DNA of 40,632 nucleotides from positions 1 to 40,632 of the IMG/VR virus record IMGVR_UViG_3300017909_002515; one strand, given 5' to 3'. Positions 12,794-40,632 of this stretch are shown piece after piece (position 1 is the first letter of the stretch; the number at the start of each line of letters is the position of its first letter). A program made the position numbers and the translations under genes. The stretch comes from a virus (lineage: Duplodnaviria > Caudoviricetes). Below the pieces are notes generated by a model. That model did no database searches. It was not told the DNA's origin and saw nothing but the letters and a program-made list of their open reading frames with translations.

Positions 12794-12800
12794 ATTAAAC

Positions 12801-13775
12801 ATGACATACATTGACGAAAAATATATTCTACTAGCCTCGCCTCTTCTTTTGCAGTTTAAGAAAAGAGGTAATCAAGTATACAACTTCCGTTGTCCCTATT
12901 GTGGAGACTCACAAAAATCTAAAACAAAAAGTCGAGGATTTGTGTTTCCCAAAGGAGACACTCTTATATATAAGTGTCACAATTGCGAAAAAGTGACTAA
13001 CACTCAAAACTTAATAAGACATTTAGATGAAAATCTATATAAGGAGTACGTGAAAGAAAAGTTGTCTGGAGGGGTAGGGAACTCCGTTTCGGAACAACCA
13101 AGGGAAGAAAGATATTATTTTAAAAAGAATGGACTGATAAAGGTTTCTAGTTTGCGATGGGATCATCCCGTAAAGAAGTACGTGATGGCGAGAAGAATTC
13201 CTTCAAACAGACAATATCAACTATTCTATGCTCCAAAGTTTTATAAGTGGGTAAATAGCATTATAACTGACAAGTTCCCATCCAGTGGTGACCATCCACG
13301 ACTTGTTTTGCCCTTCTATGATGAGAGGGGAAAGATCTTTGCCTTTCAGGGTAGAGCGTTTGGTGAAGAAATTCCCAAGTACTTAACTATTAAGTTAGAT
13401 AACACAAAGGACAAAATTTATGGGCTCGACCGCGTTGACTACAATCGTACAGTATACGTTGTTGAAGGCCCCATTGATAGTCTATTCATAGATAACTGTA
13501 TTGCAACCGCTCAAGGTGATTTGAGGGTCGGTGTTGATAATGCAGTTCTCGTTCCCGACAATGAGCCTAGGAACAAACAGATTGTTACTAACATAGAAAA
13601 GTATATTGACGATGGTTATAAAGTAGTAATATGGCCAGAGTCGATTGTCCAGAAGGACATAAATGATATGATACTCTCAGGATTTACTGAGAGACAGTTG
13701 AAAGACATAATTGCACAGAATACATACGATGGAATGCTGGCAAAAGTTAGATTATCAAATTGGAAAAAGGTATAA
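12801..13775 (+). CDS. 61: T4-like DNA primase (gp61)
   Basis: Zn ribbon RCPYCGDS...YKCHNC, FQGRAF, TOPRIM VVEGPIDS, DNEPRN, KDINDM. Confidence 0.95.
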   Translation: MTYIDEKYILLASPLLLQFKKRGNQVYNFRCPYCGDSQKSKTKSRGFVFPKGDTLIYKCHNCEKVTNTQNLIRHLDENLYKEYVKEKLSGGVGNSVSEQPREERYYFKKNGLIKVSSLRWDHPVKKYVMARRIPSNRQYQLFYAPKFYKWVNSIITDKFPSSGDHPRLVLPFYDERGKIFAFQGRAFGEEIPKYLTIKLDNTKDKIYGLDRVDYNRTVYVVEGPIDSLFIDNCIATAQGDLRVGVDNAVLVPDNEPRNKQIVTNIEKYIDDGYKVVIWPESIVQKDINDMILSGFTERQLKDIIAQNTYDGMLAKVRLSNWKKV

Positions 13776-13777
13776 AA

Positions 13778-25737: not shown

Positions 25738-27338
25738 TGAAAATATTATTTACTTACCCTAACCTTCCTCTTATGATGAGCCCTGCTATCTCTGTGGCCA
25801 TATTTCAAGAACTTGTGAATAGATTCCCAGAACATGAAATGGAAATTTTTGAAACGACTTATTATTCGGATGACTACAATAACCGTCATATTCGTCTTGA
25901 AGAGGTTGGAGCAATTCGCAAAGGTAAGGATAACTTCAATGACGATGCACAGGTTATTAGGGTTAAACCAACAAATGAAATACTACCGGATTACATAAAA
26001 AAAATTGAAGCGTATAAACCTGATGTAATCTTTTTTTCAACAGCGGAAGATACTTGGCCCCAAACAAAAAGTTTTTTAGAGGCAGCTAGACCTTATCAAA
26101 TAAAAACATTGATAGGTGGAGTCTTTCCAACCGCAGCACCAGAGATTGTCTTAGGACACCCAGACGTTAATTATATCTGTGTACATGAAGGTGAGGGTGT
26201 TGTACAAAATATATTAGAAGGAAAGGATTGGGAAGATATTCTTGGTATTCACTATAAAGATAAAAATGGTAAGATACATCAAAATGGTGTGCAACCGCTT
26301 TGGGACATTAACAGTGTAATCCCAGATTTTCGTATATACGAAAAAGATGGTCGTAGATGGAAAAGACCTATGGGTGGTAGAATGTTTCAAAAGGTTCTCC
26401 CGATGGAAACCTATCGTGGTTGTCCGTATAGTTGCACCTACTGTAACAGTCCATTTACAAGAGAATACACTAGAAAAACTAATAACGGAAGCTTTCTAAG
26501 GAGAAAAACTCCTAAAGTTATTGATGAAGAGTTTCAGGTAATGCGAGAAAGACATAACCCTGACATGGTAATGTTTATCGATGACAGTTTTTTAGCTAGA
26601 CCAAAAGATGAAATATTTGAGTTTTCGAAATTATGGGGTAAACACAAAACGCCATTCTGGTTTAACACCAGAATAGAAAACTGTGATCCTGATGTGTTAC
26701 AAGCAATGAAAGAAGCTGGCGCATATAGAATGGCTTTTGGTTTAGAAGCGGGAAGCGAAGAGTATCGTAAAAAATACTTGAACAGAAGAGTTAGTAACGA
26801 AAAATATCGTAAATACTTTAAGTACATCAATGATAGCAATATTTGTTACAATTTTAATGTTATTATTGGGATGCCGTTTGAAACCAGAGAACTTGTTTTA
26901 GAAACTGCTAGATTGGTAAAAGATGCACTGGGGTATGACTCGCTTACAATTTCATACTTTACCCCCTATCGTGGGACTGCATTACGTGACATTGCAGTAG
27001 AAGCAGGAATGTTGACAGACAAATATGTCTATGGAGAAGGCTACATTGCGAAGGAAATGAGAGAAAATCATTTTCTTCAACAACCTATTGGATGTCTGAC
27101 TCCAGAAGACACACAAAGACTGATGAAATGTTTTTCTTTATATGCTTACTACCCAGAGAGTAGATGGGATGAAGTTTATGAAGCAGAAACTAATGATGAA
27201 ATTTACAAAGAGTTGATGGACTACTATCATAAAAACTTCTTATCCGAATATCAATTGGGCGGCAAGGACAGAATTAATAAAAGATTTTGTGCTCAACATG
27301 ATGCAACTACAACCTATTCTTGGGAAATTGTTGCTTGA
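25737..27338 (+). CDS. Cobalamin-dependent (class B) radical SAM enzyme
   Basis: B12-binding-like region (IGGVFPT..PE, EGE), RGCPYSCTYC, DDSF, FGLEAG, IIGMPFET, FTPYRGT. Confidence 0.9.
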   Translation: MKILFTYPNLPLMMSPAISVAIFQELVNRFPEHEMEIFETTYYSDDYNNRHIRLEEVGAIRKGKDNFNDDAQVIRVKPTNEILPDYIKKIEAYKPDVIFFSTAEDTWPQTKSFLEAARPYQIKTLIGGVFPTAAPEIVLGHPDVNYICVHEGEGVVQNILEGKDWEDILGIHYKDKNGKIHQNGVQPLWDINSVIPDFRIYEKDGRRWKRPMGGRMFQKVLPMETYRGCPYSCTYCNSPFTREYTRKTNNGSFLRRKTPKVIDEEFQVMRERHNPDMVMFIDDSFLARPKDEIFEFSKLWGKHKTPFWFNTRIENCDPDVLQAMKEAGAYRMAFGLEAGSEEYRKKYLNRRVSNEKYRKYFKYINDSNICYNFNVIIGMPFETRELVLETARLVKDALGYDSLTISYFTPYRGTALRDIAVEAGMLTDKYVYGEGYIAKEMRENHFLQQPIGCLTPEDTQRLMKCFSLYAYYPESRWDEVYEAETNDEIYKELMDYYHKNFLSEYQLGGKDRINKRFCAQHDATTTYSWEIVA

Positions 27339-27364
27339 CAATCCCTATTATACTACCTTATAAT
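27335..27364 (+). promoter_or_regulatory. Sigma70-type promoter for the tRNA
   Basis: TTGACA-N18-TATAAT, 9 nt upstream of the tRNA. Confidence 0.8.
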
Positions 27365-27373
27365 ATGTAATAT

Positions 27374-27450
27374 GTCCTGATAGCTCAACTGGATAGAGCA
27401 TCGGCCTTCTAAGCCGAGGGTTGCAGGTTCGAGTCCTGCTTGGGACGCCA
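27374..27450 (+). tRNA. tRNA-Arg(TCT)
   Basis: Acceptor GTCCTGA/TTGGGAC, anticodon arm TCGGC-CTTCTAA-GCCGA, T arm GCAGG-TTCGAGT-CCTGC, encoded CCA. Confidence 0.97.
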
Positions 27451-27460
27451 TTTTTCGGGA

Positions 27461-27534
27461 GAGTAGTGGGGAGGTGTGGTTACCTGAACCCCGACGAAAA
27501 AACCTAAATGACACCCCCACTACTCAACTTTTTT
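27461..27534 (+). terminator. Long hairpin with large loop and T tract (terminator or small RNA)
   Basis: gagtagtgggg/ccccactactc 11 bp plus gtgt/acac, 33-nt loop, T6 at 27529-27534. Confidence 0.6.
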
Positions 27535-27535
27535 C

Positions 27536-27623
27536 TAAGTCATTGATTTTATTGAGATTTTAAGTCATTGATTTTATTAGACCTTCAAATTATTTTACAA
27601 TTACCTTATAAATCAATGACTTA
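27536..27623. repeat. Three copies of TAAGTCATTGATTT (two direct, one inverted)
   Basis: TAAGTCATTGATTTTATT at 27536-27553 and 27561-27578, inverted AAATCAATGACTTA at 27610-27623. Confidence 0.9.
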
Positions 27624-27628
27624 TATGC

Positions 27629-27658
27629 TTGACAAAACGGGGCCTTATGTTCTATAAT
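27629..27658 (+). promoter_or_regulatory. Strong sigma70-type early promoter
   Basis: TTGACA-N18-TATAAT with an AT-rich upstream region. Confidence 0.85.
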
Positions 27659-27693
27659 TATACTGTAATTTGATGATTGAGAGAGAAAATACT

Positions 27694-28065
27694 ATGACCA
27701 ACGAAATGTCCTTTGCAATAATGAAAATGGTTAAAGTCATGAAAAATGACTATCTGCGTTTTTGGAAACGTTCTGATAGTGTATCTGCCCCTGGCACTTT
27801 GTCACCATATGCTCAAAAACAGTTGGATGGGTTTGTTGATTCAATTGAGATTTCTGAAGGTAACAAATACATTAAGATCATTCGGAATGATGGACAACGC
27901 ATGGTTTGGGGTTTTATTGTCAACACAGATAATGACGCAAAATTTAAACGTGGTGATATACTAAAGGCTGCCGGTTGGGCAGCTCCCGCACGAAACAAAC
28001 CGCGTGGTAATATTTTGGATGGTGATTTTTCTTGGGTTCGTTGGACTGGCCCTGAGTATCTTTAA
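27694..28065 (+). CDS. Conserved phage early hypothetical protein
   Basis: GNKYIKI...VWGFI...FKRGDILKAAGWAAPARNKPRGNI..WTGPEYL, GAGAGAG leader. Confidence 0.8.
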   Translation: MTNEMSFAIMKMVKVMKNDYLRFWKRSDSVSAPGTLSPYAQKQLDGFVDSIEISEGNKYIKIIRNDGQRMVWGFIVNTDNDAKFKRGDILKAAGWAAPARNKPRGNILDGDFSWVRWTGPEYL

Positions 28066-28079
28066 GAGAGGTAAGAGTT

Positions 28080-28406
28080 ATGTTGGATTTTAGAGGTTAC
28101 GAGATTGTCGCTGACGGTATTGATGCCGGTCGTTATGCTACTCCAGAAGTCGCAATGCAGGCCTACGTGGATGATTGCCACAGCTATATCTCAGATACCT
28201 CTAAAGATGTATGGGGTTTCCGTTATCGCGGCGCTCTACCTACTACTTTTGCTGAACTAGAAGAAGAGTGTAAGATCTGGGAAGATCGTCTTAACATCCT
28301 TCTGTCCGAAGAACAGCACGAGGAAATAGAAAACCTCAATGCATTCATTCAATACGCGCCTGATCTAGAGACGGCCGAACGTTGGGCCAAGGAGGCCACA
28401 CACTAG
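28080..28406 (+). CDS. Early hypothetical protein
   Basis: YISD.SKD..GFR.R motif, GAGAGGT leader. Confidence 0.75.
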   Translation: MLDFRGYEIVADGIDAGRYATPEVAMQAYVDDCHSYISDTSKDVWGFRYRGALPTTFAELEEECKIWEDRLNILLSEEQHEEIENLNAFIQYAPDLETAERWAKEATH

Positions 28407-29059
28407 TGTTTAGACATGTAGAAACTGAAACCTTACCGACTCTATCGAGAAAAACGATAGAAGGTAAACGTATGTACCTGACTGAAGACGGCAGAAAGTA
28501 TCCTTCTGTCACTACAGTTCTTGGTGCAAGAAACGCGAAAGCAATCCATGAGTGGAGAAAACGTGTTGGTGAAAAGAAAGCAAATGCAATCTCATCTCGC
28601 GCTTCTGCTCGTGGAACTAAGATACATGGTTTCTGCGAAAGTTATTTGTGTAATGAAAGTGTTCCCTATGAAGAACTAAATTTGATCGAGAAAGATATGT
28701 GGTATGAGTTTACCCCTATCCTAGATCGAATTAATAACATTCATCATATTGAAAGTTTCTTGTACAGTGACCATTTACGAATGGCTGGACAAGTGGATTG
28801 CATTGCAGAATTCGATGGTAAACTGACTATCATTGATTTCAAAACTGCTGCAAAACCAAAATACAAAAGTCAGATTAAACATTATTTTGCACAATGCGCT
28901 GCGTATGCAATCATGTACGAAGAACGGACAGGTATCCCTGTTAATCGTATCGCTGTGTTGATTTCGGTACAAGGTGAACAACCTCAAGTGTACATTGAGA
29001 AACGTGATAACTACGTTGATTATCTTATCGAAAGTCGAGATTTATATGAGAACAATTGA
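28406..29059 (+). CDS. PD-(D/E)XK exonuclease (Cas4-like phage exonuclease)
   Basis: YPSVTTVL, RGT.IH, AGQVDCI, IIDFKT, Q..AY. GTG start after AGGAGG. Confidence 0.85.
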   Translation: MFRHVETETLPTLSRKTIEGKRMYLTEDGRKYPSVTTVLGARNAKAIHEWRKRVGEKKANAISSRASARGTKIHGFCESYLCNESVPYEELNLIEKDMWYEFTPILDRINNIHHIESFLYSDHLRMAGQVDCIAEFDGKLTIIDFKTAAKPKYKSQIKHYFAQCAAYAIMYEERTGIPVNRIAVLISVQGEQPQVYIEKRDNYVDYLIESRDLYENN

Positions 29060-29062: not shown

Positions 29063-29192
29063 GTTTCGTCTGCCGGCCTCTCTCTCTCACTCTCACGGCA
29101 GACAAAACCGTAGGCAATATATTATGAACCAACTGATGCCTACAGGGGACAACAGGGTTAACTCTTGCTCTCTGTTGTCCCCACCCTTTTTT
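29063..29192 (+). ncRNA. Candidate three-hairpin small RNA ending in a terminator-like stem
   Basis: Stems gtctgccg/cggcagac (20-nt loop), gtaggca/tgcctac (20-nt loop), ggggacaacag/ctgttgtcccc (16-nt loop), then T6. Confidence 0.65.
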
Positions 29193-29203: not shown

Positions 29204-29752
29204 ATGAATGTATTTTACTTACACCCCATCCCTAAAACTTGTGCAGTAATGCACTGTGACAAACACGTAGTCAAAATGATTATTGAGTATGCACAGTTGA
29301 TGTCTACAGCCCATCGTATGTTGGACGGTACTGAGTACTATGGTAAAACAAAGAATGGGCGTAAAATCAAACGATGGGAACACCCAAAACCCTACATGGA
29401 AAACGCCTTGTATAAAGCAAGTCATGTAAATCATCCAAGTGCAATCTGGTGTCGTGCTAATCACGAGAACTACAACTGGTTGTACAACATGTGGTTGGAA
29501 CTCTGTTACGAGTACACTCATCGATATGGAAAAACTCACCTTTGTGAAACCAAACTGAGAGATGTTTTGTGTCAGTTGCCTGAAAATATTCCTACAGGTA
29601 AATTTACACAACCTACCCCAGCAATGCCTGACATATATAAAAGAGAGGACTCTATTATGGCGTATCGTAATTATTATATGGGTGCTAAGAAAGCTTTTGC
29701 CTCATGGAAGAACAGGGAGGCGCCGATTTGGTATGAACCAGAAACTAGTTGA
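29204..29752 (+). CDS. Pyrimidine-dimer DNA glycosylase (DenV-like) family protein
   Basis: MNVFYL...A..HCDKHVVKMIIEYAQLMSTAH, H.NHPSAIW, EY..RYGK.H, P.AMPD, AYR.YY. Confidence 0.7.
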   Translation: MNVFYLHPIPKTCAVMHCDKHVVKMIIEYAQLMSTAHRMLDGTEYYGKTKNGRKIKRWEHPKPYMENALYKASHVNHPSAIWCRANHENYNWLYNMWLELCYEYTHRYGKTHLCETKLRDVLCQLPENIPTGKFTQPTPAMPDIYKREDSIMAYRNYYMGAKKAFASWKNREAPIWYEPETS

Positions 29753-29896: not shown

Positions 29897-30199
29897 ATGC
29901 CTACATATAACTTTCAAAATAAACAAACTGGTGAAGTCATTGAAAAGTTTATGAAGATTGCCGAAAGGGAAACTTGGTTAAAAGAGAATCCCGATTATCA
30001 ATCTATCATAATGCAGGCTCCATCATTCACGGGTGACCATATCATCTCTAAACAGCAAGACGGGGGAATGAAAGAGGTTCTAGACAGAGTTGCAAACGCA
30101 CACCCTGATAGCCCACTTGCAGACAGATATGGTGACAAGAAATCTATCAAAGACCTTAAGACTAAGGATGTTTTAAGAAAACACGGTATAACAACATGA
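29897..30199 (+). CDS. FmdB-like small regulatory protein (Cys-less variant)
   Basis: MPTYNF.NK.TGE..E....EVL...HP pattern common upstream of phage phoH. Confidence 0.65.
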   Translation: MPTYNFQNKQTGEVIEKFMKIAERETWLKENPDYQSIIMQAPSFTGDHIISKQQDGGMKEVLDRVANAHPDSPLADRYGDKKSIKDLKTKDVLRKHGITT

Positions 30200-30900
30200 G
30201 TAAAAAAGTCTATTTAAAAGATTTGCGCGAACTAAGTCCTATTGGTGAAAATCAAAAACAAGTATTCTCATCTTGGGAAGCTGGTAAAAATCAATTTCTT
30301 TTCGGTGCTGCTGGAACGGGTAAAACCTTTGTTGCACTTTACAATGCGATGTTTGACGTACTAGATAATGAATCTCCATACGAAAGAGTTATTCTTGTGC
30401 GTTCACTTATCCCTACACGAGAAATTGGTTTCTTGCCAGGCGATGAAGAAGATAAATCTGCGTTGTATCAAGTTGGGTACATGAACATGGTAGACTTTAT
30501 GTTTCATGATCCTAGAGGCCCGAACAGCAGTGCCTCCATGTTTGAACTGTTAAAGGAACAAAAACTGTTATACTTTATGTCAACTTCATTTTTACGAGGC
30601 TTGACATTCGACAACAGTATTGTTATAGTAGATGAGTGTCAAAACTTAAACTTTCATGAACTAGACACCATTATTACGAGAACAGGTCAAAACACAAAAA
30701 TTGCTTTTGCGGGTGACTATTCACAAACAGATTTGAAGAACACTAATGAAAAAAATGGTTTGTATGACTTTATGAGAATTCTAGAAAACCTACCTAGTTT
30801 CAATTGCACAGAGTTTGGTATTGGTGACATTGTAAGGTCAGGATTGGTTAAAGAATATCTTATTGAAAAAATAAAACTTGGAATGGGGTCAGAACTATGA
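30196..30900 (+). CDS. phoH: PhoH-family ATPase
   Basis: Walker A GAAGTGKT, IGFLPG, FLRGLTF, VDECQN, GD..QTDL, DIVRSGLVK. Confidence 0.95.
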   Translation: MSKKVYLKDLRELSPIGENQKQVFSSWEAGKNQFLFGAAGTGKTFVALYNAMFDVLDNESPYERVILVRSLIPTREIGFLPGDEEDKSALYQVGYMNMVDFMFHDPRGPNSSASMFELLKEQKLLYFMSTSFLRGLTFDNSIVIVDECQNLNFHELDTIITRTGQNTKIAFAGDYSQTDLKNTNEKNGLYDFMRILENLPSFNCTEFGIGDIVRSGLVKEYLIEKIKLGMGSEL

Positions 30901-31349
30901 ACAGAGAGGCTGTATACGAACAGCTTAAAATAGACGAAGGGGTCAAGTATGAAATCTATAATGACCACCTCGGTTATCCAACATTTGGAGTCGGTCACCT
31001 TGTCAAAGAAAGTGACCCCGAATATGGACAACCAGTTGGAACAGCAGTCAGTGAAGAAAGAGTCCGTGAATGTTTCGAGGGTGACCTTGACACCGCAATC
31101 AGCGAGTGTCGCAATCTATACGGAGAAGGGGACTTTGGAGCCTTACCCGATGAAGTACAGCAAATCCTTGTTAATATGATGTTTAACATGGGTCGAACAA
31201 GATTAAGTAAATTTAAAAAAATGAATGCCGCAATTGCAGAAGGTAATTGGAGTGAGGCAGCATTAGAAGGAAGGGACAGCCGGTGGTACAAACAGGTTAC
31301 TAATCGTGCTGAAAGATTAATGACACGATTGGAGAACATAAATGGCTAG
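30897..31349 (+). CDS. T4-type lysozyme (GH24)
   Basis: IDEG...IYNDHLGYPTFGVGH (Glu-Asp-Thr triad), NMMFNMG, DSRWYKQVTNRA. Confidence 0.9.
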   Translation: MNREAVYEQLKIDEGVKYEIYNDHLGYPTFGVGHLVKESDPEYGQPVGTAVSEERVRECFEGDLDTAISECRNLYGEGDFGALPDEVQQILVNMMFNMGRTRLSKFKKMNAAIAEGNWSEAALEGRDSRWYKQVTNRAERLMTRLENING

Positions 31350-31551
31350 ACTCAGAGAACAAATATTGGAAGCTAGTAAGAAACATTTTGAATCCCACAT
31401 TGAAAAACATAGAATAAACGTAGAGGTTTATTTGTCAGACTCAGTGGGTATAGGTGAACATCCAGACATCATGGAAGCGATTGAAGGTGAACTATCACAA
31501 ATGGCTGAGTATGACGATAAACTAGAAATGTTAGACAAATATTTTGACTAA
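31342..31551 (+). CDS. Conserved small phage hypothetical protein
   Basis: KH..NVEVYL...VGIGEHPDI.EAIE.EL pattern, GGAG RBS. Confidence 0.75.
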   Translation: MARLREQILEASKKHFESHIEKHRINVEVYLSDSVGIGEHPDIMEAIEGELSQMAEYDDKLEMLDKYFD

Positions 31552-31554
31552 ATA
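31547..31554 (+). promoter_or_regulatory. Late-promoter-like box (ACTAAATA) upstream of the tmRNA
   Basis: TAAATA core immediately upstream of the tmRNA acceptor piece. Confidence 0.5.
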
Positions 31555-31559
31555 ACAAA

Positions 31560-31895
31560 CCTATGTACAAAGTATTCGATGAAGCATGAGATAGGAAGTT
31601 TGGACGGGGGTTCAACTCCCCCCGCCTCCACCAAGAGCACATTCCGTAACTGCGTTACTTGTGGTAAGAGTTTCAAAGTGGTGATAGATCATCCATCTGT
31701 TATTCACTGTTCCAAGGAGTGTGTTGTTGATGGGGGCGTTCTGGATTCGACAGACGACTGAAGGCATGTGGAGAATCGACTAACGCAGAAGGTCGTTAAA
31801 CTAGAAGCAAAACTACAAACGCCAATGATGACGTTTACGCTCTAGCCGCTTAAGGTTAGATGGGGTCTGGCCCACCTTATAATCCAACGGGCCAT
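31560..31895 (+). ncRNA. ssrA: Circularly permuted two-piece tmRNA (outer ends approximate)
   Basis: T arm and 3' acceptor GGGGGTTCAACTCCCCC-CGCCTCC-A-CCA (ends 31633) precede the 5' end GGGGGCG..GGATTCGAC (starts 31732). G3-U70 pair. Tag ANDDVYALAA* at 31821-31853. Confidence 0.93.
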
Positions 31896-31911
31896 CTACT
31901 AGGAATTAATT

Positions 31912-32142
31912 ATGGATTTTGAAGAATACACAACAAAAAAGTTTTCTCTTAAAATTGAAGAAATCGCCAGAGACAAAGGTATTACACACTTTGATGCTGT
32001 GCTGTACTACTGTGAAAAAAACGAAATTGAAGTAGAGTACGTCTCTAAGATGCTAACAAAGGCTCTTAAAGACAAGATTGAAATTAACGCTCGAAACTTA
32101 AAGATGATGAAAGATAATGTCGTTACTGAACTTCCTGTTTAA
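31912..32142 (+). CDS. 33: Late transcription coactivator gp33
   Basis: FSL.IE...DAVL.YCE.NEIE......LTK.LK.KIE..A..L, upstream of 59 and 32. Confidence 0.85.
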   Translation: MDFEEYTTKKFSLKIEEIARDKGITHFDAVLYYCEKNEIEVEYVSKMLTKALKDKIEINARNLKMMKDNVVTELPV

Positions 32143-33361
32143 AAGTAAAAAGAAACCATCTGTTACTTTCTATTACGATATACCAAGAGACATATGCGAC
32201 AAGATTAATCCTAAAACCGGCCGCAGAGGCGGTGAATGGGTTAATACTTCGTTGTATTGTAAGACTTGGAACTCGTTACATCCAGACGAACAATATAAGT
32301 GGATAGATTATCCCAACACATATTCTAAGAACTATTCTAAGGGGTTCTTTAACTCTAGTGACCTTGCACCACTTGCAGAAGTGATGCATCGCAATGGAAT
32401 ACGAATTGAAAGAACTGATTTGGGGGAGGAGATAAAAGGTAAATATATCTATCCTCTTTCCTTTGGTGCATCTTCTATATCATATTCCATAACGAGATGG
32501 GGCGCAAATCTATTTGACAATGTAAAAGACTTTGTTGTTGAAGACATTAATAATGGCAAGTGTCTAATGATTTTGTTTGACATTGACGACCCTGAGTCAC
32601 ATGTAATTGAGCCTTGGTGCTGGGAAAAACTTGACGTATTGCTCTCCACCGCAGGTATTGACCCAAGTAAAGTTATTTTTGTAACAAGAAATTTTGGTGA
32701 CTCGTATGTGGCAACTGCATCTACAGAAATGGAGGTAATTACTTGGGACTATTTTGCCTGTGCAGAAAAAATACGAAACTGTGAGAATCCACCTTGGCCC
32801 TTCAATGAGAAAAATACTGGGTATGTTGATAATGTGAAACAAAAGTATGAAGACATATTAAATTATAATCCTAGTAATCCTTTCATAAACAAATTTAAAA
32901 ACAACATGAAACGGTTTGGAATTGACCCAACCTTTGGAGGGAAGATAGAAATTGTTTATGGTAACGGAAAAGGAACAGGATATCCAGAGGGTCTTCTTGA
33001 TGGTTGTTGTACGTTTCCATTGAAACTTCTTAATTGTATGTCTCAAAAGAAACCTTTTATCTATGTAAGCGATGATAACTTAATTGATAAAATGAGAGAA
33101 CTAAACTACAGTGTATATTTTGGTTGGAATTGTGAGTACGCAATGATTGACGATTCTAATAAAAGACTACATTACCTAACTATGTTGTTTAGAGAACTAC
33201 AAGATAAAGAAGACAAAATTGATGAACTGTTGGAAAAAAGTAAAGTCACTGTAGATGCAAACTATGATGCATTAAACAGGGCTGTTCCAGAACAGCAACT
33301 TATTAATCGTATTGTTGATTTTTACTTTGGTGAGAATGTATATGAGGATAGGATTTCTTAA
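32117..33361 (+). CDS. Hypothetical accessory protein
   Basis: 414-aa ORF. The C-terminal K....KPFI....L....Y..N pattern is weakly similar to 21376..22584. Confidence 0.6.
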   Translation: MSLLNFLFKSKKKPSVTFYYDIPRDICDKINPKTGRRGGEWVNTSLYCKTWNSLHPDEQYKWIDYPNTYSKNYSKGFFNSSDLAPLAEVMHRNGIRIERTDLGEEIKGKYIYPLSFGASSISYSITRWGANLFDNVKDFVVEDINNGKCLMILFDIDDPESHVIEPWCWEKLDVLLSTAGIDPSKVIFVTRNFGDSYVATASTEMEVITWDYFACAEKIRNCENPPWPFNEKNTGYVDNVKQKYEDILNYNPSNPFINKFKNNMKRFGIDPTFGGKIEIVYGNGKGTGYPEGLLDGCCTFPLKLLNCMSQKKPFIYVSDDNLIDKMRELNYSVYFGWNCEYAMIDDSNKRLHYLTMLFRELQDKEDKIDELLEKSKVTVDANYDALNRAVPEQQLINRIVDFYFGENVYEDRIS

Positions 33362-34535
33362 TCTAGATAATCCGTATTCGTCAATCGCGGTAGAGATGTC
33401 AAAAGAAGGACATCAAGTAATCGCGTATGATGCTAATGCAAAACTAGAGAAGTATTTTGACGCAACAGGTGAACATAAAAATTTCACCTTTACAACCGAT
33501 CTAGTTAAGGCTACAAAACGTTGTAGTTACGTTTTTGTATTGCACCAATTTTTACCTGAAAGATATTATGACGGAACTGCCCCTATGGTAAAGAGGGGAA
33601 TGCAAAGACAAAACCTAACACATCTAATTGAAACTTTTACAGAACTCTCCAAGATATTAAAACCATCACAAACAGTTATACTAATTGGGAATGTTCCACC
33701 TAGAACAACTAGACAACTTCAAGAGTTGATACCAGCCCCTATATTATATTTGACAGCTGGAGAAAACTTAGATACCGAAAAGATAAATGCAAGAGAGCAG
33801 TTTTGTTCTAGGTACTTGGAGCAAAATTTTCCCGTATACATTGGAACTCCTACTGGTGAGACCAAAGACAAAAGTTTTATTGCATTCGATAGGGACTTTG
33901 CCTTTTGTGGTTGGACAGGAGAAAACCTTGTTAACGGCACTTGGGAAGACATAGAACTTTTAAATATGTGTTGTCGAACTTTTGATGCTATGAATCAAAC
34001 CTTTGTCAACACGGTGCAACATTTGTGTGCAAAGATTGGTGCTGACACAAGATTCGTTTTGAGAAGGATAAAGAAAAGAACCAACCACTCATTTCGTGCT
34101 GGTATAGGGCTAGGTTGTGACTATCCACAGACTTTGATGGATATGTCTTGCTTGACAAATGATATAGGTTTAGGATATGATCCTTTCAGTGAAATGTTGC
34201 TGGCAAGAGAACAGCAGGCAAAACACATTGCAACAAAGATACGAGAACTTGGGGTTAACGTAAAGTTTGGACAAACCGTACCAGAAAGACATAGTTCATC
34301 AGAATGGTTTTACTCTGGAAGAAATATTCCAACCTTTTACAATTCTTTTATTGAACTTGTGAAACACTACGTATTACAGATGGGATGCGTTATCACTGAA
34401 GACATCGATGAAACAGAAGTGTACGTTAAGTCACCGTATGACGAACTTGCGCCAACCCTAACAAGAGGCTGGATAGGAACTGTATTTGACATAACGGAGT
34501 ATTACGGAAGGCCAATAGAACATGAATGGACCTGA
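33342..34535 (+). CDS. Degenerate UDP-glucose/GDP-mannose dehydrogenase-like protein
   Basis: MRIGF...GHQVIAYD N-terminus and AREQQA region fit the family, but GxGxxG is replaced by NLDNPY. Confidence 0.6.
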   Translation: MRIGFLNLDNPYSSIAVEMSKEGHQVIAYDANAKLEKYFDATGEHKNFTFTTDLVKATKRCSYVFVLHQFLPERYYDGTAPMVKRGMQRQNLTHLIETFTELSKILKPSQTVILIGNVPPRTTRQLQELIPAPILYLTAGENLDTEKINAREQFCSRYLEQNFPVYIGTPTGETKDKSFIAFDRDFAFCGWTGENLVNGTWEDIELLNMCCRTFDAMNQTFVNTVQHLCAKIGADTRFVLRRIKKRTNHSFRAGIGLGCDYPQTLMDMSCLTNDIGLGYDPFSEMLLAREQQAKHIATKIRELGVNVKFGQTVPERHSSSEWFYSGRNIPTFYNSFIELVKHYVLQMGCVITEDIDETEVYVKSPYDELAPTLTRGWIGTVFDITEYYGRPIEHEWT

Positions 34536-35100
34536 TGCTCAAGAAATATACTTAATATATTGTGCAATGAAGGCGCACTTTACTACAGACTATGACTATT
34601 ATAAGTTTAAAGGTAAAACTAAAATAAAGGCTCAATCTTTTTTTAATAGAAAGGATAGAATATATTTCGTGAAGTTGGCTAGGAAGTTAAAAACAAAACA
34701 AGAAGTGGAAGAATACTTCATAGCGAACTTTTCAGTGTTGAGAGATAAGTGGATAGGAGACTTTTCTGAAGACATTTACCTAAAGTGGAAAGAAAGAAAA
34801 GACAACATTGTAAACGTTCTTGAAAGGGAACTAACACCGCACGTTAAGAACTTTGAAGAACTGTTTGTAGTAAAGGGACACCCAATACTTTTTAGGGAGT
34901 ATTTGGGAAAGAGAATAAGTGCTGAAACAATGGTAGTGCTAAATACTCTTGTAAACTATTCCAAGGATTGGGATGCAAAAATGGGCAGTGATCGTATTTG
35001 GAAAAAAGAAAAAAAGTTTTTAACTAATTACGAAAAAAGCTTGACAATAAACAAAGATGCATGTAGAATGTGCTTAATTAAAATGATGGAGGTTGGTTAA
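34522..35100 (+). CDS. 59: Helicase loader gp59
   Basis: Y.AMKAHFTT.YDY.KF.GK, RKDR..F.KL, YFIANF, IS.ET. Confidence 0.9.
   Translation: MNGPDAQEIYLIYCAMKAHFTTDYDYYKFKGKTKIKAQSFFNRKDRIYFVKLARKLKTKQEVEEYFIANFSVLRDKWIGDFSEDIYLKWKERKDNIVNVLERELTPHVKNFEELFVVKGHPILFREYLGKRISAETMVVLNTLVNYSKDWDAKMGSDRIWKKEKKFLTNYEKSLTINKDACRMCLIKMMEVG
35041..35069 (+). promoter_or_regulatory. Sigma70-type promoter inside the 3' end of gene 59
   Basis: (GC)TTGACA-N17-TAGAAT, positioned to drive 35100 through gene 32. Confidence 0.6.
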
Positions 35101-35288
35101 TGACCACTCAAGCAGAAGTAATCTCCGAACTGGAGTATAATCTTGAAATCGCTAGAAAGCGAATTCGTGAACTGGAGTATGACTGCGGTCAACTTCAACG
35201 ACAGGTGAACGAGTCACGCGCTCGTTTTAACAAAAACAGAAACAACAAGGGCGCTAGACGTGGTGCAGTACAAAATACAAACAAGTAA
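35100..35288 (+). CDS. Small coiled-coil basic protein
   Basis: GGAGG RBS, TAATG coupling. Confidence 0.65.
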   Translation: MTTQAEVISELEYNLEIARKRIRELEYDCGQLQRQVNESRARFNKNRNNKGARRGAVQNTNK

Positions 35289-36093
35289 ACCAGAACATGT
35301 AGTTTTTGGTAATGGTGAGTCCAGAAAAAACTGGACTCTTAAACCACTGGCTAATGCTACAACTTGGGGCTGTAACGCAATGTATCGAGACTTTGCCCCA
35401 GACAATCTCATTGCAATCGATGTTGGTATACAAAATGAGATTGTCGCTTCTGGGTATACAAGGAGACATCAGTGTTGGTTTGCTGAATGGGAACCTATTC
35501 CAACTGATGCTTTTGCAATTGAAAGTATTATTGCATCTACTGGATTTGCAGAGTCTCAGATTTGTTGCGCTGGTGACCCAGATTCCAATAAAGTAGTTAT
35601 CAACGGTGTTGATACCAGTGATGAAAGGGTACAGGAATTAAAGTTGATGTTTCCACATCTAGATGCAGAAGATTTGGAAGCAAAGCTTAAGTCGGACTAC
35701 GGAATGTACGTGACGTATGTCTCACCAGAAGACAAGATACGTCCAATCTCAGACCCTGAAGGATGGTCAGCAGGGACAACTGCTATGCATCTTGCATGTC
35801 AAGATGGTGCAGAAGTTGTTTATATGATTGGGTTTGATTTATCATCATATTCTAGTCGAATAAATAATATTTACAAGGGGACTCCACATTATCTCCCGCC
35901 TGAGGCAAAGGGGTTCAACCCAATCAACTGGAAAAATCAGTTGTATTTGTTGTTCAAGGAATTCGAAGATGTTCAATTTAAGTGGGCATACGATAGTAAT
36001 TTCTTGAAACAAAATGATTTTGAAAGTGCAAAAGGATTGATAGAACTTCCAAATGTGGAAACAATAGCACACGAAAACATACGTTTAACATAA
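35260..36093 (+). CDS. MptE/Maf/sialyltransferase-like fold protein
   Basis: VFGNGESR, WGCNA.YRDF.PD.L...D, SAG..A..LA, YMIGFDL. Confidence 0.55.
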   Translation: MVQYKIQTSKPEHVVFGNGESRKNWTLKPLANATTWGCNAMYRDFAPDNLIAIDVGIQNEIVASGYTRRHQCWFAEWEPIPTDAFAIESIIASTGFAESQICCAGDPDSNKVVINGVDTSDERVQELKLMFPHLDAEDLEAKLKSDYGMYVTYVSPEDKIRPISDPEGWSAGTTAMHLACQDGAEVVYMIGFDLSSYSSRINNIYKGTPHYLPPEAKGFNPINWKNQLYLLFKEFEDVQFKWAYDSNFLKQNDFESAKGLIELPNVETIAHENIRLT

Positions 36094-36103
36094 GGAGACA
36101 ATT

Positions 36104-37003
36104 ATGTCATTGGATAATATCCGCCGCAACAACTCTCTGGACAAACTTCTTGGTGCAGTCCAGAAAGATAATCAACCTCAAGAAAAGAAATCATACGTAG
36201 ATGAACGTCTTTGGAAACCCGAACTGGACAAGTCTGGTAACGGTTATGCTGTGATTCGTTTCTTGCCTGCCGTTCACGGTGAAGAACTGCCATGGGCTAA
36301 AGTATATTCACATGCATTCCAAGGCCCCACTGGACAGTGGTACATCGAGAACTCTCTAACAACTCTCAACGAAAAGGATCCCGTATCTGAGTACAACACT
36401 AAACTTTGGAACACTGGTGTTGAATCTGATAAGGAGATTGCACGTAAACAGAAACGCAAACTTCAGTACTACTCTAACATCTATGTTGTGAGTGATCCAA
36501 AACACCCTGAAAATGAGGGTAAGGTTTTCTTGTTCCGTTATGGTAAGAAAATCTATGACAAACTTCTGGCTGCAATGCAACCAGAGTTCGAGGACGAAAG
36601 TCCTATCAATCCTTTCTGTCCTGAAACTGGTGCGAACTTCAAATTGAAGATTCGTAAGGTTGACGGATACTGGAACTACGACAAGTCGGAGTTCGAGGCT
36701 GTATCTGCACTAAGTGAGGATACCGCGAAAGTAGAACAGGTATGTTCCAATTCATATCCACTTTCTGAGTACACAGAGAGAAGTAACTTCAAGTCATACG
36801 AGGAACTAAAAACTCGACTTGACGTTGTTCTTTCTGGAGTTACCAAAGTGGGTAACGTAGAAGACAGTATCGACGCTACACCAGCTCCCGCGATTCGGGA
36901 GGCAACTGCACCACAACCAGTTGCAGTGGAGTCTTCGTTCGAAACGACTGCTGACGAAGAAGATGACACCATGTCGTACTTTGAAAAACTTGCTAACAAC
37001 TAG
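36104..37003 (+). CDS. 32: Single-stranded DNA-binding protein gp32
   Basis: DERLWKP..DKSGNGYAVIRFLP, WYIENSLTT, KRKL.YYSNI, GANFKLKI, NYDKSEF, acidic tail. Confidence 0.97.
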   Translation: MSLDNIRRNNSLDKLLGAVQKDNQPQEKKSYVDERLWKPELDKSGNGYAVIRFLPAVHGEELPWAKVYSHAFQGPTGQWYIENSLTTLNEKDPVSEYNTKLWNTGVESDKEIARKQKRKLQYYSNIYVVSDPKHPENEGKVFLFRYGKKIYDKLLAAMQPEFEDESPINPFCPETGANFKLKIRKVDGYWNYDKSEFEAVSALSEDTAKVEQVCSNSYPLSEYTERSNFKSYEELKTRLDVVLSGVTKVGNVEDSIDATPAPAIREATAPQPVAVESSFETTADEEDDTMSYFEKLANN

Positions 37004-37023
37004 AAGTCTTTCTACGTTTTGTG

Positions 37024-37049
37024 AGGGGGAACTATGTTCCCCCTTTTTT
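37024..37049 (+). terminator. Rho-independent terminator after gene 32
   Basis: agggggaac-tat-gttccccct followed by a T run. Confidence 0.85.
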
Positions 37050-37056
37050 ATAAATA
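37049..37056 (+). promoter_or_regulatory. T4-type late promoter (TATAAATA)
   Basis: Exact motif abutting the terminator, 60 nt upstream of the first monooxygenase. Confidence 0.75.
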
Positions 37057-37115
37057 GGCTTATTCCCTCGCTGTGAAGCGACATGATTCCCCATGAGGAC
37101 AACGGAGAATCTAGT

Positions 37116-38420
37116 ATGAAAAAAATTTTACTTCTAATGTTGTTGCCTGTTCTGACAACAGCTCAAACTTACACAGATGATGTAGCAGAAATCATCAACA
37201 ATAATTGTGTTGTCTGTCATCGGCCAGGAGGCGTGGGCCCGATGAGTTTCGAAACCTATGAACAAGTTCGTCCTTGGGCGCCTCTCATTCAAATGCGAGT
37301 AGCAAACAGAGAAATGCCTCCCTATGCATACGACCAGCATATAGGTATTCAGGACTTGGAAGGAGATTGGAGACTTTCTCAAGAACAGATTGATACTGTA
37401 GTAGCATGGGTAAATGCAGGTTCCCCTTATGGCGATCCTGACCGTGTAGTGCAATTACCTGAAATGCCTAATCCAGATGATTGGCGGTTTTCTGCAATGT
37501 TTGGCCAACCTGACTTAATTGTACCTTCAAGTCCGTATGACATTCCGGCAAACGGAAATGACCTGTGGAGTAAAGAATTTGTTAATCCAAAACTTGTTGA
37601 AGATCGTTGTATAAAGGCGGTACAGGTAAAACCAAAAGGTGATGCAGCTGCGGTAGTACATCACGCTAACTCAGATGTATATGTGTATGATGAAGAGGGC
37701 GAACTTGTTCCTTATGGACAACTCACAGAGTATGCGATGGGCAAATGGGGTGAAGTTATGCCTGAAGGAGTCTGTCGCATCATGCCTGCAAATTCACTAG
37801 TGCGTTGGGACATTCACATGTTTCCTGGCGGTGTGGGTGCAACTGCTGAAGGCGACATGATCGAAGACAATGTTGTAGAGATTGGTCTTTGGTTCCACGA
37901 TGAAGATTACGCAGAAGTAAACGATGTGTACAATCAAGACCTTCGTTTATATCCTCTTCGTGAAGGGTATGAAAATGGCCACCTGATTGTTCCACCTCAT
38001 GGTTATGCTATGACTCAAGGCTTTCATAGTTTTGACCATCCCGTCCGTATTGACAGTTTCCAACCACATGGACATCTACGGATGAATGCAGCAAGTTTAG
38101 AAATCTTTTATCCTGATACGGGTAGAACCGAATCAGTGTCTCAGATTTCTAATTGGTCAGCAACGTGGCATCACAGTCACATTTATGCTGAAGATGTAGC
38201 CCCTTTGTTACCAACTGGGGCAGTGTTAGTAATAAAACAGTGGTATGACAATACTGCTGATAATCCCAACAATCCTGATCCAGATCAATGGGTATATGGC
38301 GGAAGTAGAACGGGTGACGAGATGTCTCATGCGTGGATAGCTGTTACTCATTTAGACGAAGAAGGTTATGAAAAAATATTGGAGGAAAGAAATGCGAAAA
38401 TTAATATTGCTGGGAGGTAG
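37116..38420 (+). CDS. Exported cytochrome c / copper type II (PHM/DBH-like) monooxygenase, copy 1
   Basis: Signal peptide, heme motif CVVCH, MPP, CuH-type VVHHAN and DIHM, CuM-type QPHGH and DEMS. Confidence 0.8.
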   Translation: MKKILLLMLLPVLTTAQTYTDDVAEIINNNCVVCHRPGGVGPMSFETYEQVRPWAPLIQMRVANREMPPYAYDQHIGIQDLEGDWRLSQEQIDTVVAWVNAGSPYGDPDRVVQLPEMPNPDDWRFSAMFGQPDLIVPSSPYDIPANGNDLWSKEFVNPKLVEDRCIKAVQVKPKGDAAAVVHHANSDVYVYDEEGELVPYGQLTEYAMGKWGEVMPEGVCRIMPANSLVRWDIHMFPGGVGATAEGDMIEDNVVEIGLWFHDEDYAEVNDVYNQDLRLYPLREGYENGHLIVPPHGYAMTQGFHSFDHPVRIDSFQPHGHLRMNAASLEIFYPDTGRTESVSQISNWSATWHHSHIYAEDVAPLLPTGAVLVIKQWYDNTADNPNNPDPDQWVYGGSRTGDEMSHAWIAVTHLDEEGYEKILEERNAKINIAGR

Positions 38421-39630
38421 TTTATTTGCAATTATAAGTTATGCAGATGAAATAGATTACGCACAAGACGTTGCACCTATCTTTGTAGAACAATGCCAGT
38501 CTTGTCACAGGGAGGGCGGTATTGCTCCTTGGGCAATGACTAACTATCAAATGTTACAGGCATTTGCCCCTGCAATCAAAGAGGCAATCATTACGAAACA
38601 CATGCCGCCTGGCCAGATTGATCGTAAATACGCAGGCACTATCATTAATCACAGGACTCTCAGTAATCGTGAAGTTGATACGATTGTAGAGTGGATTGAT
38701 GCAGGCGCACCTGTTGAGGGTGATGTTGATCCTTTGACAGAGACAACCTATTCTACTTCAGAGTGGGTGCATGGTGAACCAGATATGATTATCGAAGTAC
38801 CGCCTCAAGAGATTCCTGCTGTCGGTACAATGGGCCCTAATGCCATTCCATACAGATACACCAGTGTGGATTTAGGTCTCACAGAGGACAAGTGGTTACG
38901 TGGTTCAGAATTTTTACCATCAGAACCTACTGTCATGCACCATATGCTCAACACTGTATCGCTGCCAGGCGAACGAAACGGTAACCTGTTGGGTGCTCAG
39001 GGTGAAGGACAGGGTAACATGGAGTATGCAACTATCAGTGCATATGTGCCAGGCGGTGACCCCGATTACTACGATGAAAACACTGGCGGTTTGTTACGTG
39101 CAGGCTCTATCGTAAATCTACAGTTACACTATACGCCTGACGGTACTGCAAGAACTGATAGAGCAAGAATCGGACTGTACTTCCATGATGAAGGTGTGAT
39201 ACCAGAAGAGAGAATGGCAGGCGACTGTGCTTGTATTTTCCCTAACAACTGGACACCGATTCCCCCATACGATCCTAACTTTGTACAGACAGCAGAGATT
39301 ACGTTGAAGAATGATATTCGACTACACACATTCTTGCCTCACATGCATTTCCGTGGCAAGAGTATGCGTGCTACTGCAATCTATGCTGATGGTACAGAAG
39401 AAGAGCTTATCGACATTCCTAAATATGACTATGCTTGGCAACTTTCATATACATGGAAAGATCCCAAGTTTATTCCAGCAGGAACACGATTGTTTGTTGA
39501 AGGTGCATTTGACAATTCGGCAGACAATCCAATGAACCCTGATCCAGCAAGAGAAGTACCTTGGGGCCAAATGTCAGAGGACGAAATGTTCTTTGGCGCA
39601 TTCACTTGGAAAAACGTAGAAGGAGACTAG
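38392..39630 (+). CDS. Exported cytochrome c / copper type II (PHM/DBH-like) monooxygenase, copy 2
   Basis: GGAGG RBS, signal peptide, CQSCH, MPP, VMHHML, LQLHY, LPHMHFRG, DEMF. Confidence 0.85.
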   Translation: MRKLILLGGSLFAIISYADEIDYAQDVAPIFVEQCQSCHREGGIAPWAMTNYQMLQAFAPAIKEAIITKHMPPGQIDRKYAGTIINHRTLSNREVDTIVEWIDAGAPVEGDVDPLTETTYSTSEWVHGEPDMIIEVPPQEIPAVGTMGPNAIPYRYTSVDLGLTEDKWLRGSEFLPSEPTVMHHMLNTVSLPGERNGNLLGAQGEGQGNMEYATISAYVPGGDPDYYDENTGGLLRAGSIVNLQLHYTPDGTARTDRARIGLYFHDEGVIPEERMAGDCACIFPNNWTPIPPYDPNFVQTAEITLKNDIRLHTFLPHMHFRGKSMRATAIYADGTEEELIDIPKYDYAWQLSYTWKDPKFIPAGTRLFVEGAFDNSADNPMNPDPAREVPWGQMSEDEMFFGAFTWKNVEGD

Positions 39631-39631
39631 C

Positions 39632-39703
39632 ATGTGGACTAAACCCACTTACGAAAAAATCCGTTTAGGGTTTGAAGTAACAATGTACTACAAAAATAGA
39701 TAG
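39632..39703 (+). CDS. pqqA: Pyrroloquinoline quinone precursor peptide PqqA (not in ORF track)
   Basis: AGGAGA RBS. MWTKPTYEKIRLGFEVTMYYKNR* (23 aa) with the W.KP leader and GFEVTMY (ExxxY) core. Confidence 0.93.
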   Translation: MWTKPTYEKIRLGFEVTMYYKNR

Positions 39704-39723
39704 AAAAATATTAAAGGTGAGAA

Positions 39724-39930
39724 ATGAAAAAATTATTGCAAGTGCTGATGATCAGTTTGGTCTTAACTGGTTGTGGTAGTAGCGCAATAGACCTATATGA
39801 TGACCCACAATTTGATTGGATGCCTAATCCATTGCAGTGGGAAAGAAACTGGAGAGATTGTAGATCTCAACCACAATGCAACCCTGCTGATTTGTTCAAT
39901 AGAACGGGTTACATCAGCACGATTGGTTAA
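39724..39930 (+). CDS. Small lipoprotein
   Basis: MKKLLQVLMISLVLTGC (lipobox LTGC), AAGGTG RBS, two further Cys. Confidence 0.7.
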   Translation: MKKLLQVLMISLVLTGCGSSAIDLYDDPQFDWMPNPLQWERNWRDCRSQPQCNPADLFNRTGYISTIG

Positions 39931-40632
39931 ATTGCCGCGGTAGCAATACCATTGATAAATGGGTCTGGATTCACAAGACTCTTGTTGTTGACAGTGGTAT
40001 TGCTATTGCTGGTGTTACTTACTCTAGTAGATGGGGCATTCACAACTGTAACCTGAGCCATCGCCTCTTCTCTACTTACAGATTGCTGTGACTGAATCAA
40101 TTCTTGATTTTGTTGCAAAGATGGTGCGGTAGAAAGTGGAGCAATTTGTGCCTCCGAAGGTTCTACCTCCATCATCATTTCATCAAAGTTTCTCTGCATC
40201 TGTGCTTCTAGGGCTCTTCTTTCGATAAGTTTTTCTGCAATTATACCAGAAGAATCCATTTCTGCCGCAGTCTCCATGTCGGCATTAACGAACCTCGTTG
40301 CCTCTGCAACAGTGTCAAACATTGCACGTACCCCAAACCTTGACGTTCCTATGTACTTACCAGACCAATCTAAGATTACTCCATCTGGTAATCTTTGTTC
40401 TGCTTGATTTGTTGCAGTGTTAACTAGTTGTGTAATATTTGCAGGCGGAGATGTCTGCACAACTGGTTCAGGTGTAAAGTCGGCCGGAGATGTCTGCACA
40501 ACTGGTTCCGGTTCAAAGTCGGCAGGAGTGAGTGCAAAAGCCTGATCTATTGCCTCTTGTCCAGTTTGAGGCACAGGTAGGTCATTGTTCATCATGTTCA
40601 ACTGCATTGACGCAAAGGTTGTACTCGTGTCA
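39927..40632 (-). CDS. C-terminal part of a low-complexity protein (possibly baseplate/tail associated), 5'-partial
   Basis: Frame stays open to the window edge. VVNAPST..SNTSNSNTTV-type tail. Confidence 0.6.
   Translation of the reverse strand, partial: DTSTTFASMQLNMMNNDLPVPQTGQEAIDQAFALTPADFEPEPVVQTSPADFTPEPVVQTSPPANITQLVNTATNQAEQRLPDGVILDWSGKYIGTSRFGVRAMFDTVAEATRFVNADMETAAEMDSSGIIAEKLIERRALEAQMQRNFDEMMMEVEPSEAQIAPLSTAPSLQQNQELIQSQQSVSREEAMAQVTVVNAPSTRVSNTSNSNTTVNNKSLVNPDPFINGIATAAI
40446..40523 (-). repeat. Tandem 39-nt (13-aa) intragenic repeat
   Basis: cggagatgtctgcacaactggttc at 40446 and 40485, encoding PADF(E/T)PEPVVQTS twice. Confidence 0.9.

What the first reader, a model, noticed from the sequence alone, without database searches (positions are those of the whole stretch)
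29063..29192. Three-hairpin RNA whose loops are antisense to the leaders of the upstream early genes
Seen: three back-to-back GC-rich hairpins with loops of 20, 20 and 16 nt, followed by T6. Segment 29159-29173 (UAACUCUUGCUCUCU, mostly loop 3) pairs with 28065-28080 (AGAGAGGUAAGAGUUA, the RBS and first base of the start codon of gene 28080) over 15 bp with one G-U pair and one bulge. Loop 1 (GCCUCUCUCUCUCACUCUCA) contains UCUCUCUCA, complementary to UGAGAGAGA at 27678-27686 (leader of gene 27694), and CCUCUCU, complementary to 28065-28071. Inference: a multi-loop antisense sRNA from the 3' end of the early transcript shuts off translation of early genes with GA-rich leaders. Loop 2 (AUAUAUUAUGAACCAACUGA) has no match I could find in this window. 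GA/CU repeats are low complexity, so the loop-1 matches are weak evidence alone; the loop-3 match is the more specific one.
Basis: partly seen in the sequence, partly recalled or inferred. Interest (0 to 1): 0.82.

Follow-up and report, generated by a model that had tools for sequence, protein, structure and literature searches.

The report
Three-loop phage RNA mirrors own mRNAs
A marine T4-like phage carries, at the end of an early operon, a conserved three-hairpin sequence whose first loop is complementary to the starts of several of its own early genes and whose third loop is a perfect 20-letter complement of its own tail-sheath gene, so it is likely one small RNA that would turn down both early and late messages by base-pairing, although no transcript or effect has been seen.

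Summary
The three hairpins and T-run are real (z -7.1). They are kept, with compensatory stem changes, in a sister phage whose exonuclease gene is 80% identical. I found a second 51-kb piece of the same phage (G039). Over both pieces, loop 1's three best partners of 120 gene starts are all leaders behind sigma-70 promoters, and gene 28080 is fourth (0/500 shuffles). Its match to 28080 is no better than shuffles. Loop 2 has no firm target. Similar anti-leader hairpins occur in other marine phages, including cultured Melnitz, but were not found in several others. No Rfam family matches. Best reading: a multi-target antisense RNA working like P1/P7 C4; expression and effect untested. This scan noted early-leader antisense hairpins before on other phages; none of the 8 notes shown mentions a coding-region late target.

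The parts
29063..29108 (+). Hairpin 1; loop 29076-29095 is CU-rich and complementary to GAGAG-type leaders of early genes
   Evidence: (loop unpaired 1.0; 3 of 8 core pairs changed on both sides in the sister)
29110..29143 (+). Hairpin 2; AU-rich 20-nt loop 29117-29136 containing AUG; target not established
   Evidence: (stem identical in sister, loop length kept, loop sequence partly changed)
29145..29182 (+). Hairpin 3, probably also the terminator stem; 29152-29171 is the perfect complement of codons R-A-R-V-N-P-V of the phage's own tail-sheath gene (G039:C1, coding strand, site at 37746)
29187..29192 (+). T6 run 4 nt after stem 3; predicted 3' end (T7 in the sister)
   Evidence: not flagged by the consensus terminator scan, whose loop limit is 8 nt
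27629..27658 (+). Perfect sigma-70 consensus promoter (12 of 12) of the early operon; nearest strong promoter-like site upstream of the element
27678..27686 (+). Leader of gene 27694; only 9-nt perfect complement of loop 1 in the window
27694..28065 (+). Early gene, phrog_5014 (unknown function); predicted target of loop 1
28065..28080 (+). Ribosome site of gene 28080; fourth-ranked partner of loop 1, weak secondary partner of loop 3
28080..28406 (+). 108-aa orphan gene, absent from this place in the sister phage
28406..29059 (+). PD-(D/E)XK exonuclease (phrog_298, PF12705); the element begins 4 nt after its stop here and follows it in the sister too
29204..29752 (+). Downstream gene phrog_624; replaced by a tryptophan-halogenase-like gene in the sister contig, so not part of the unit

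Best explanation
The segment is a conserved three-hairpin sequence at the 3' end of an early operon of a marine T4-like phage, and it likely yields one stable antisense RNA whose loops would pair with the phage's own messages: loop 1 with the GA-rich ribosome sites of early genes, loop 3 with the coding region of the late tail-sheath message. Shown: the structure, its conservation with compensatory changes, and the complementarities. Inferred: transcription from the sigma-70 promoter at 27629, termination at the T6 run, and trimming to a protected ~130-nt species that builds up during early infection. Inferred: loop 1 blocks 30S loading on early mRNAs as the RNA accumulates, a negative-feedback timer doing the job RegB does in T4. 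Inferred: the 16-20 bp duplex of hairpin 3 at codon 532 of 670 triggers cleavage or decay of sheath mRNA made too early by read-through, until the gene's own late promoter outnumbers the RNA. Loop 2 is unresolved. It may pair with the same read-through transcript upstream of the sheath gene (13 nt) or present a RegA-type AU-rich AUG site.
For: Structure z -7.1, sister -5.4. In the sister (L183) fourfold sites of the exonuclease are only 39 of 64 identical, yet stem 1 has 3 double-compensatory pairs of 8, stem 3 has one plus a pair lost from both arms, and loop 3 is 16 of 16 identical. The overlapping small ORF changes frame between the two phages, so it is not a conserved peptide. G039 belongs to the same phage: tetranucleotide r 0.985 against 0.79-0.94 for 12 other records; no shared core gene; its RegA, major capsid and tail-tube proteins and the window's gp32 and primase each lie on a contig of 148,232 bases. 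Loop 1: top 3 of 120 starts are among the 7 promoter-led ones, 0 of 500 shuffles. Loop 3: perfect complement 16 nt, shuffles at most 14 (0 of 1000); duplex -26.9 against opening costs of 4.4 + 4.1 kcal/mol. All best matches are to the message strand. Analogues in other marine phages track their own leader motif (GAGAG, GAGGAGAG, GGAGCTAG): 8 of 12 lineages beat at least 487 of 500 shuffles. RegB was not found in 10 of 10 marine phage records searched, with T4 as positive control.
Against: Only two distinct homologues of the three-hairpin form exist in my data, so covariation is not statistical. The sister's sheath gene could not be checked. Within the GAGAG group loops pair about as well with relatives' leaders as with their own, and CU/GA repeats are low in complexity. 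4 of 12 lineages did not beat shuffles. No such hairpin was found in G006, a complete genome with many GAGAG leaders. In Melnitz only 2 of the top 10 starts are promoter-led. Loop 2's best match is reached by 40 of 1000 shuffles and shows no preference for early starts (295 of 500). G039 was found through the loop-3 pattern. The link of the two pieces rests on equal contig length, composition and gene content, not on an overlap. The sheath protein on the 148,232 contig differs from G039's at 5 residues, none at the site.
Confidence: 0.68

Rival explanations
1. The RNA is mainly aimed at superinfecting relatives: it pairs with their early leaders and sheath mRNA and gives exclusion, as C4 contributes to P1/P7 heteroimmunity. 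Self-matches follow from kinship.
For: 26 of 44 IMG/VR hits of the loop-3 16-mer are tail-sheath genes, in 14 distinct contexts. Loop 1 pairs as well with relatives' leaders.
Against: The longest match seen, 20 nt, is to the phage's own gene, so self-targeting cannot be avoided. The site was absent from the sheath genes of 10 of 10 records picked by other genes and from Melnitz.
Confidence: 0.12
2. The hairpins are protein-binding decoys or a stability element. Loop 2 titrates the RegA translational repressor, and the other loops bind host proteins.
For: Loop 2 is AU-rich with an AUG in both phages, like the RegA sites described in PMC3014915 (passages). Its best match is also a sense copy of a real gene start. 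The phage encodes RegA.
Against: Does not explain a perfect 20-nt complement to the sheath gene or the ranking of early leaders. It could be true for loop 2 alone.
Confidence: 0.08
3. The hairpins are a small guide array for a nuclease, most simply the Cas4-like PD-(D/E)XK exonuclease just upstream, acting on RNA or DNA.
For: The element follows the exonuclease in both phages while the downstream gene differs. Loops are 16-23 nt with distinct targets.
Against: The three stems are not repeats. No comparable array was found within 10 kb in the 182 loci of 38-69% relatives scanned. Analogous hairpins follow other genes: an endolysin, an ATPase, phrog_5014. Loop 1 pairing is short and bulged.
Confidence: 0.07
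4. An ordinary terminator with extra stems; the loop matches are chance or relics of local DNA inversions.
For: Hairpin 3 plus T-run has terminator form; GA/CU repeats match easily.
Against: Shuffle controls, 16 of 16 loop conservation against 61% at fourfold sites, and leader-tracking in other clades.
Confidence: 0.05

Closest known systems
C4 antisense RNA of phages P1/P7 (Rfam RF01695)
   Same: Phage-made structured RNA whose loops pair in trans with the phage's own mRNA near a ribosome site and block translation (PMC12197685, passages).
   Different: No Rfam match. Lytic T4-like phage. Targets are several early leaders plus a late coding region, not the ant antirepressor message. Lies at an operon's 3' end.
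T4 RegB endoribonuclease (PF10715)
   Same: Inactivates early mRNAs at their GGAG ribosome sites at the early-to-late transition (PMC3014915, passages).
   Different: A protein nuclease. Not found in 10 of 10 marine records searched. The RNA would be a functional stand-in, which is inferred.
3'-UTR-derived bacterial sRNAs such as DapZ (RF02551)
   Same: Shares the host operon's terminator; the class is recalled to pair with ribosome sites of several mRNAs (recalled, no call).
   Different: Only a chance-level Rfam score (14.7 bits against 56, E 7.8). Seeds sit in three long loops. Chaperone dependence unknown.
T4 RegA operators
   Same: Loop 2 is AU-rich with an AUG, like the SELEX consensus and natural operators (PMC3014915, passages).
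   Different: Presented in a hairpin loop outside any conserved gene start; binding not tested.

Membership tests
C4 antisense RNA (RF01695) | Covariance-model match at the gathering score | tested here: not met
C4 antisense RNA (RF01695) | Target is the ant antirepressor mRNA of a temperate phage | tested here: not met
   Best partners are early leaders and the tail-sheath coding region; no antirepressor among 54 window proteins scanned
C4 antisense RNA (RF01695) | Complementary stretches displayed in loops, acting in trans on own mRNA | tested here: met
   In sequence only:
Trans-acting base-pairing sRNA | A discrete transcript exists | not testable with these tools
   See Tried and rejected
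Trans-acting base-pairing sRNA | Seed-target pairing beyond chance | tested here: met
   Loops 1 and 3: 0 of 500 and 0 of 1000 shuffles; loop 2 not
Trans-acting base-pairing sRNA | Seed and target change together | tested here: inconclusive
   Seen between clades and in a separate jumbo clade (kinship not controlled); only two homologues of this element
Trans-acting base-pairing sRNA | Regulation lost and restored by compensatory mutation | not testable with these tools
   Needs experiments
CRISPR-like guide array | Repeated identical scaffolds between guides | tested here: not met
   The three stems differ in sequence and length
Any Rfam 15 family | Match at gathering score | tested here: not met
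   Window; L183, L155, L171, L326 and the Melnitz stretch: only tRNA and tmRNA hits

The most novel reading that the evidence does not exclude
Lytic marine phages that lack RegB and middle promoters time their cycle with modular multi-guide RNAs: a string of hairpins, each loop a separately evolving guide, one closing early translation and another holding back a late structural gene from inside its coding region. The same guides would also silence co-infecting relatives, possibly with the adjacent Cas4-like exonuclease as effector.
Probability: 0.2. Interest if true: 0.9.

Novelty: new variant of a known kind. Interest (0 to 1): 0.74.

Why it matters
How T4-like marine phages shut off early genes without RegB or a middle phase is open; the Melnitz paper finds no middle promoters (PMC9004378, passages), and sRNA functions in lytic phages are called unclear (PMC8244752, passages). 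This element gives named targets in both an early and a late gene, and a one-loop analogue with its own promoter and terminator exists in a cultured system: Melnitz on Methylophilales H5P1, MZ577097.1 about 38520-38640, now annotated as a hypothetical protein. That makes the idea directly testable.

Tried and rejected
No RNA holder was listed among 9 runs, so expression is unassessed. Rfam: nothing above gathering. BLASTN of the element against cultured phages: 11 chance hits. Stem-2 pattern in IMG/VR: only the phage's own copy. Metagenome pattern scan: one sister contig. Hairpin-array scan of 182 loci: no third homologue. Host target for loop 3: 15 scattered hits of a 17-mer in GTDB, no cluster. 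A conserved peptide across the element: frames differ. Loop 2 against the start at 35100 (-11.2, second of 64) was not tested against shuffles and is not kept. I first took the sheath match for chance or a competitor, until G039 proved to be the same phage. G005's leader-complementary motif lies at promoters as an inverted repeat and may be a DNA operator, so it is not counted. The 9-mer genome scan missed the Melnitz and Mosig elements, so its blanks for G001, G004, G006, G035 and G037 are weak. Direct DNA overlap of G039 with the window: none over 1-15000 and 30000-40632. No covariance model was built, as two sequences are too few. Paper searches listed no description of such an RNA; supplements were not read, and those of PMC2864571 and PMC9004378 could bear on prior description.

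Full report
Setting. The window is a whole 40.6-kb contig of a T4-like myophage: primase, NrdA/B, gp33, gp59, gp32, PhoH, tRNA and tmRNA. The closest cultured match by gp32 is Methylophilales phage Melnitz, 63%. The element fills most of the 144-nt gap between a PD-(D/E)XK exonuclease (stop 29059) and a phrog_624 gene (29204). It closes an operon that starts at a 12-of-12 sigma-70 promoter at 27629-27658.

Observation. Three hairpins with loops of 20, 20 and 16 nt and a T6 run are as described. Folding z is -7.1 (0 of 200 shuffles). Loop unpaired probabilities are 1.0, 0.88 and 0.66. No Rfam family matches.

Conservation. Protein searches show one sister clade (exonuclease 85%; phrog_624 74%) and then a gap to about 63-65%. 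One metagenome contig of the sister was recovered (L183). It has the same three hairpins after the exonuclease stop, although the next gene is different and gene 28080 is missing from the operon. Fourfold sites of the exonuclease are 39 of 64 identical. Stem 1 has 3 of 8 core pairs changed on both sides, stem 2 is identical, stem 3 has one compensatory pair and one pair lost from both arms, and loop 3 is 16 of 16 identical. A small ORF across hairpins 2-3 changes frame between the two, so no peptide is conserved. Two sequences are all there is: scans of 182 more distant loci and a stem-2 pattern found no third.

A second piece of the same phage. The loop-3 16-mer hit 44 IMG/VR stretches, 26 of them antisense to tail-sheath codons R-A-R-V-N-P in 14 distinct contexts. 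Sheath genes of 10 records picked by other genes lacked the site (the two that had it had been found by the pattern), so I first read this as chance or a competitor. Laying the two possible source runs on one such gene showed a contig in each with 18 differences, none in the site; G039, the record of L212, has 18 differences over the same stretch, and the nine listed agree. G039 (51 kb) does not overlap the parts of the window tested, but its tetranucleotide profile correlates 0.985 with the window against 0.79-0.94 for 12 other records. It holds the neck-to-helicase genes the window lacks, and shares only two weak paralogue hits. Its RegA, major capsid and tail-tube proteins, and the window's gp32 and primase, are each on a contig of 148,232 bases. 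The sheath protein of that contig keeps the motif and differs at 5 other residues. I treat G039 as the same phage or a near-identical strain.

Loop 1. In the window its only 9-nt perfect complement is the leader at 27678, and an unbiased scan of sense-strand non-coding DNA for complements of early leaders returned only this loop. Over window plus G039, the top 3 of 120 starts are G039:3715 (-21.2), G039:30777 (-17.8) and 27694 (-17.4), all among 7 promoter-led starts; 28080 is fourth; 0 of 500 shuffles reach the mean of the best three. Against this, in the window alone 253 of 1000 shuffles reached the best-of-all value and the start at 6558 scored slightly better in that wider window.

Loop 3. 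It is a perfect complement over 16 nt, 20 with the 5' stem, at codon 532 of 670 of the tail sheath. Shuffled loops reach at most 14 nt in the same 92 kb (0 of 1000). Duplex -26.9 kcal/mol, opening costs 4.4 and 4.1. The sheath gene has its own late-promoter motif 47 nt upstream (G039:39386).

Loop 2. No preference for early starts (295 of 500). The best perfect complement, 13 nt, lies on the same strand about 400 nt upstream of the sheath start, upstream of its late promoter. It is at the same time a sense copy of the start of a gene on the other strand that looks like a methyltransferase by eye; 40 of 1000 shuffles reach 13 nt. The loop is AU-rich with an AUG in both phages, like RegA sites (PMC3014915, passages), and RegA is in 8 of 10 records searched, all eight T4-like ones. 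Unresolved.

Analogues. Single hairpins with 20-29 nt pyrimidine loops on the coding strand occur in L098/L099, L120, L155, L171, L326, L284 and L339; these were found by a CTCTC filter, which biases them. L155 and cultured Melnitz have promoter, hairpin and terminator as a free-standing unit. In a separate jumbo-phage clade a loop or unpaired seed follows a phrog_1250 gene. Its top partners are promoter-led starts: top 3 of 229 in G030, top 2 of 366 in G031, top 3 of 79 in G032. G031's hairpin was found by position alone. In 50 of 68 distinct loci picked by that gene (those with a leader and a T-run), the longest complement to own leaders averages 7.26 nt against 6.52 after permuting loci (0 of 5000) and 5.5 after shuffling; kinship is not controlled. 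Loops sort by leader motif into three groups; 8 of 12 lineages beat at least 487 of 500 shuffles and 4 do not. Melnitz is modest: AUC 0.74, 2 of 100 shuffles, 2 of the top 10 early. G006, complete and rich in GAGAG leaders, showed none. These analogues are not shown to be homologous to this element.

Mechanism. Shown: structure, conservation, complementarity. Inferred: an RNA ending at the T-run accumulates from the early operon; loop 1 occludes early ribosome sites; hairpin 3 forms a long duplex on sheath mRNA and promotes its decay, most simply to suppress premature sheath. RegB, which does the first job in T4 (PMC3014915, passages), was not found in 10 of 10 marine records, with T4 ringing as control; the window's own full genome could not be searched.

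Comparison. It works like C4 of P1/P7 (PMC12197685, passages; listed as RF01695 in PMC2864571, passages) but fails membership. Eight paper searches listed nothing describing it; the Melnitz paper's main text has no hit for sRNA, noncoding or hairpin. PMC8244752 was seen as passages; all other papers as search listings only. This scan holds 100 earlier notes on antisense-to-early-leader hairpins in other phages, of which 8 were shown; they are unchecked and were not used as support. No note matched this sequence or genome.

Verdict. A real, conserved RNA-like element with two well-supported antisense arms, one early and one late; function untested. New variant of a known kind, interest 0.74.

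Noticed in passing
MZ577097.1 38520-38640 (L481): Melnitz hypothetical protein _66 overlaps a promoter, a 14-bp hairpin with CU-rich loop and a terminator; probably a small-RNA gene misannotated as a CDS.
   Followed up: partly
MT647606.1 about 106690-106743, minus strand (L342, L468): Pelagiphage Mosig has an unpaired CU tract and terminator right after gp32, with 16 nt identical to the L171 loop; modest preference for early starts (1 of 100 shuffles).
   Followed up: partly
L098 15585-15639; L099 15113-15167: 17-bp hairpins with CU loops lying in frame inside a cell-wall-hydrolase-like gene, with compensatory stem changes.
   Followed up: partly
L382-L461, 3' of phrog_1250: Jumbo-phage clade with a conserved anti-leader seed and terminator after an AAA-like ATPase; letter-for-letter matches to own leaders in many loci.
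   Followed up: partly
G031:C1 about 72390: Second long hairpin whose inner stretch is complementary to the 5' ends of six early leaders.
   Followed up: no
G005:C1 82500, 84780, 161000; L120 7830-7870: A GAATCAC/GTGATTC motif flanks early promoters and leaders; looks like a DNA operator.
   Followed up: no
window 31530-31908: Phage tmRNA scoring with both the beta and the permuted model; Melnitz also has a tmRNA.
   Followed up: no
window 27335-27447 and 27530-27625: Second perfect sigma-70 promoter before a tRNA gene, then a cluster of TCATTGATTTTATT-like direct and inverted repeats upstream of the early promoter; a similar cluster is in L183.
   Followed up: no
L068, L070, L129: A shared hairpin (CTTACCTG ... 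CAGGTAAG) with a 26-nt loop, not compared with Rfam.
   Followed up: no
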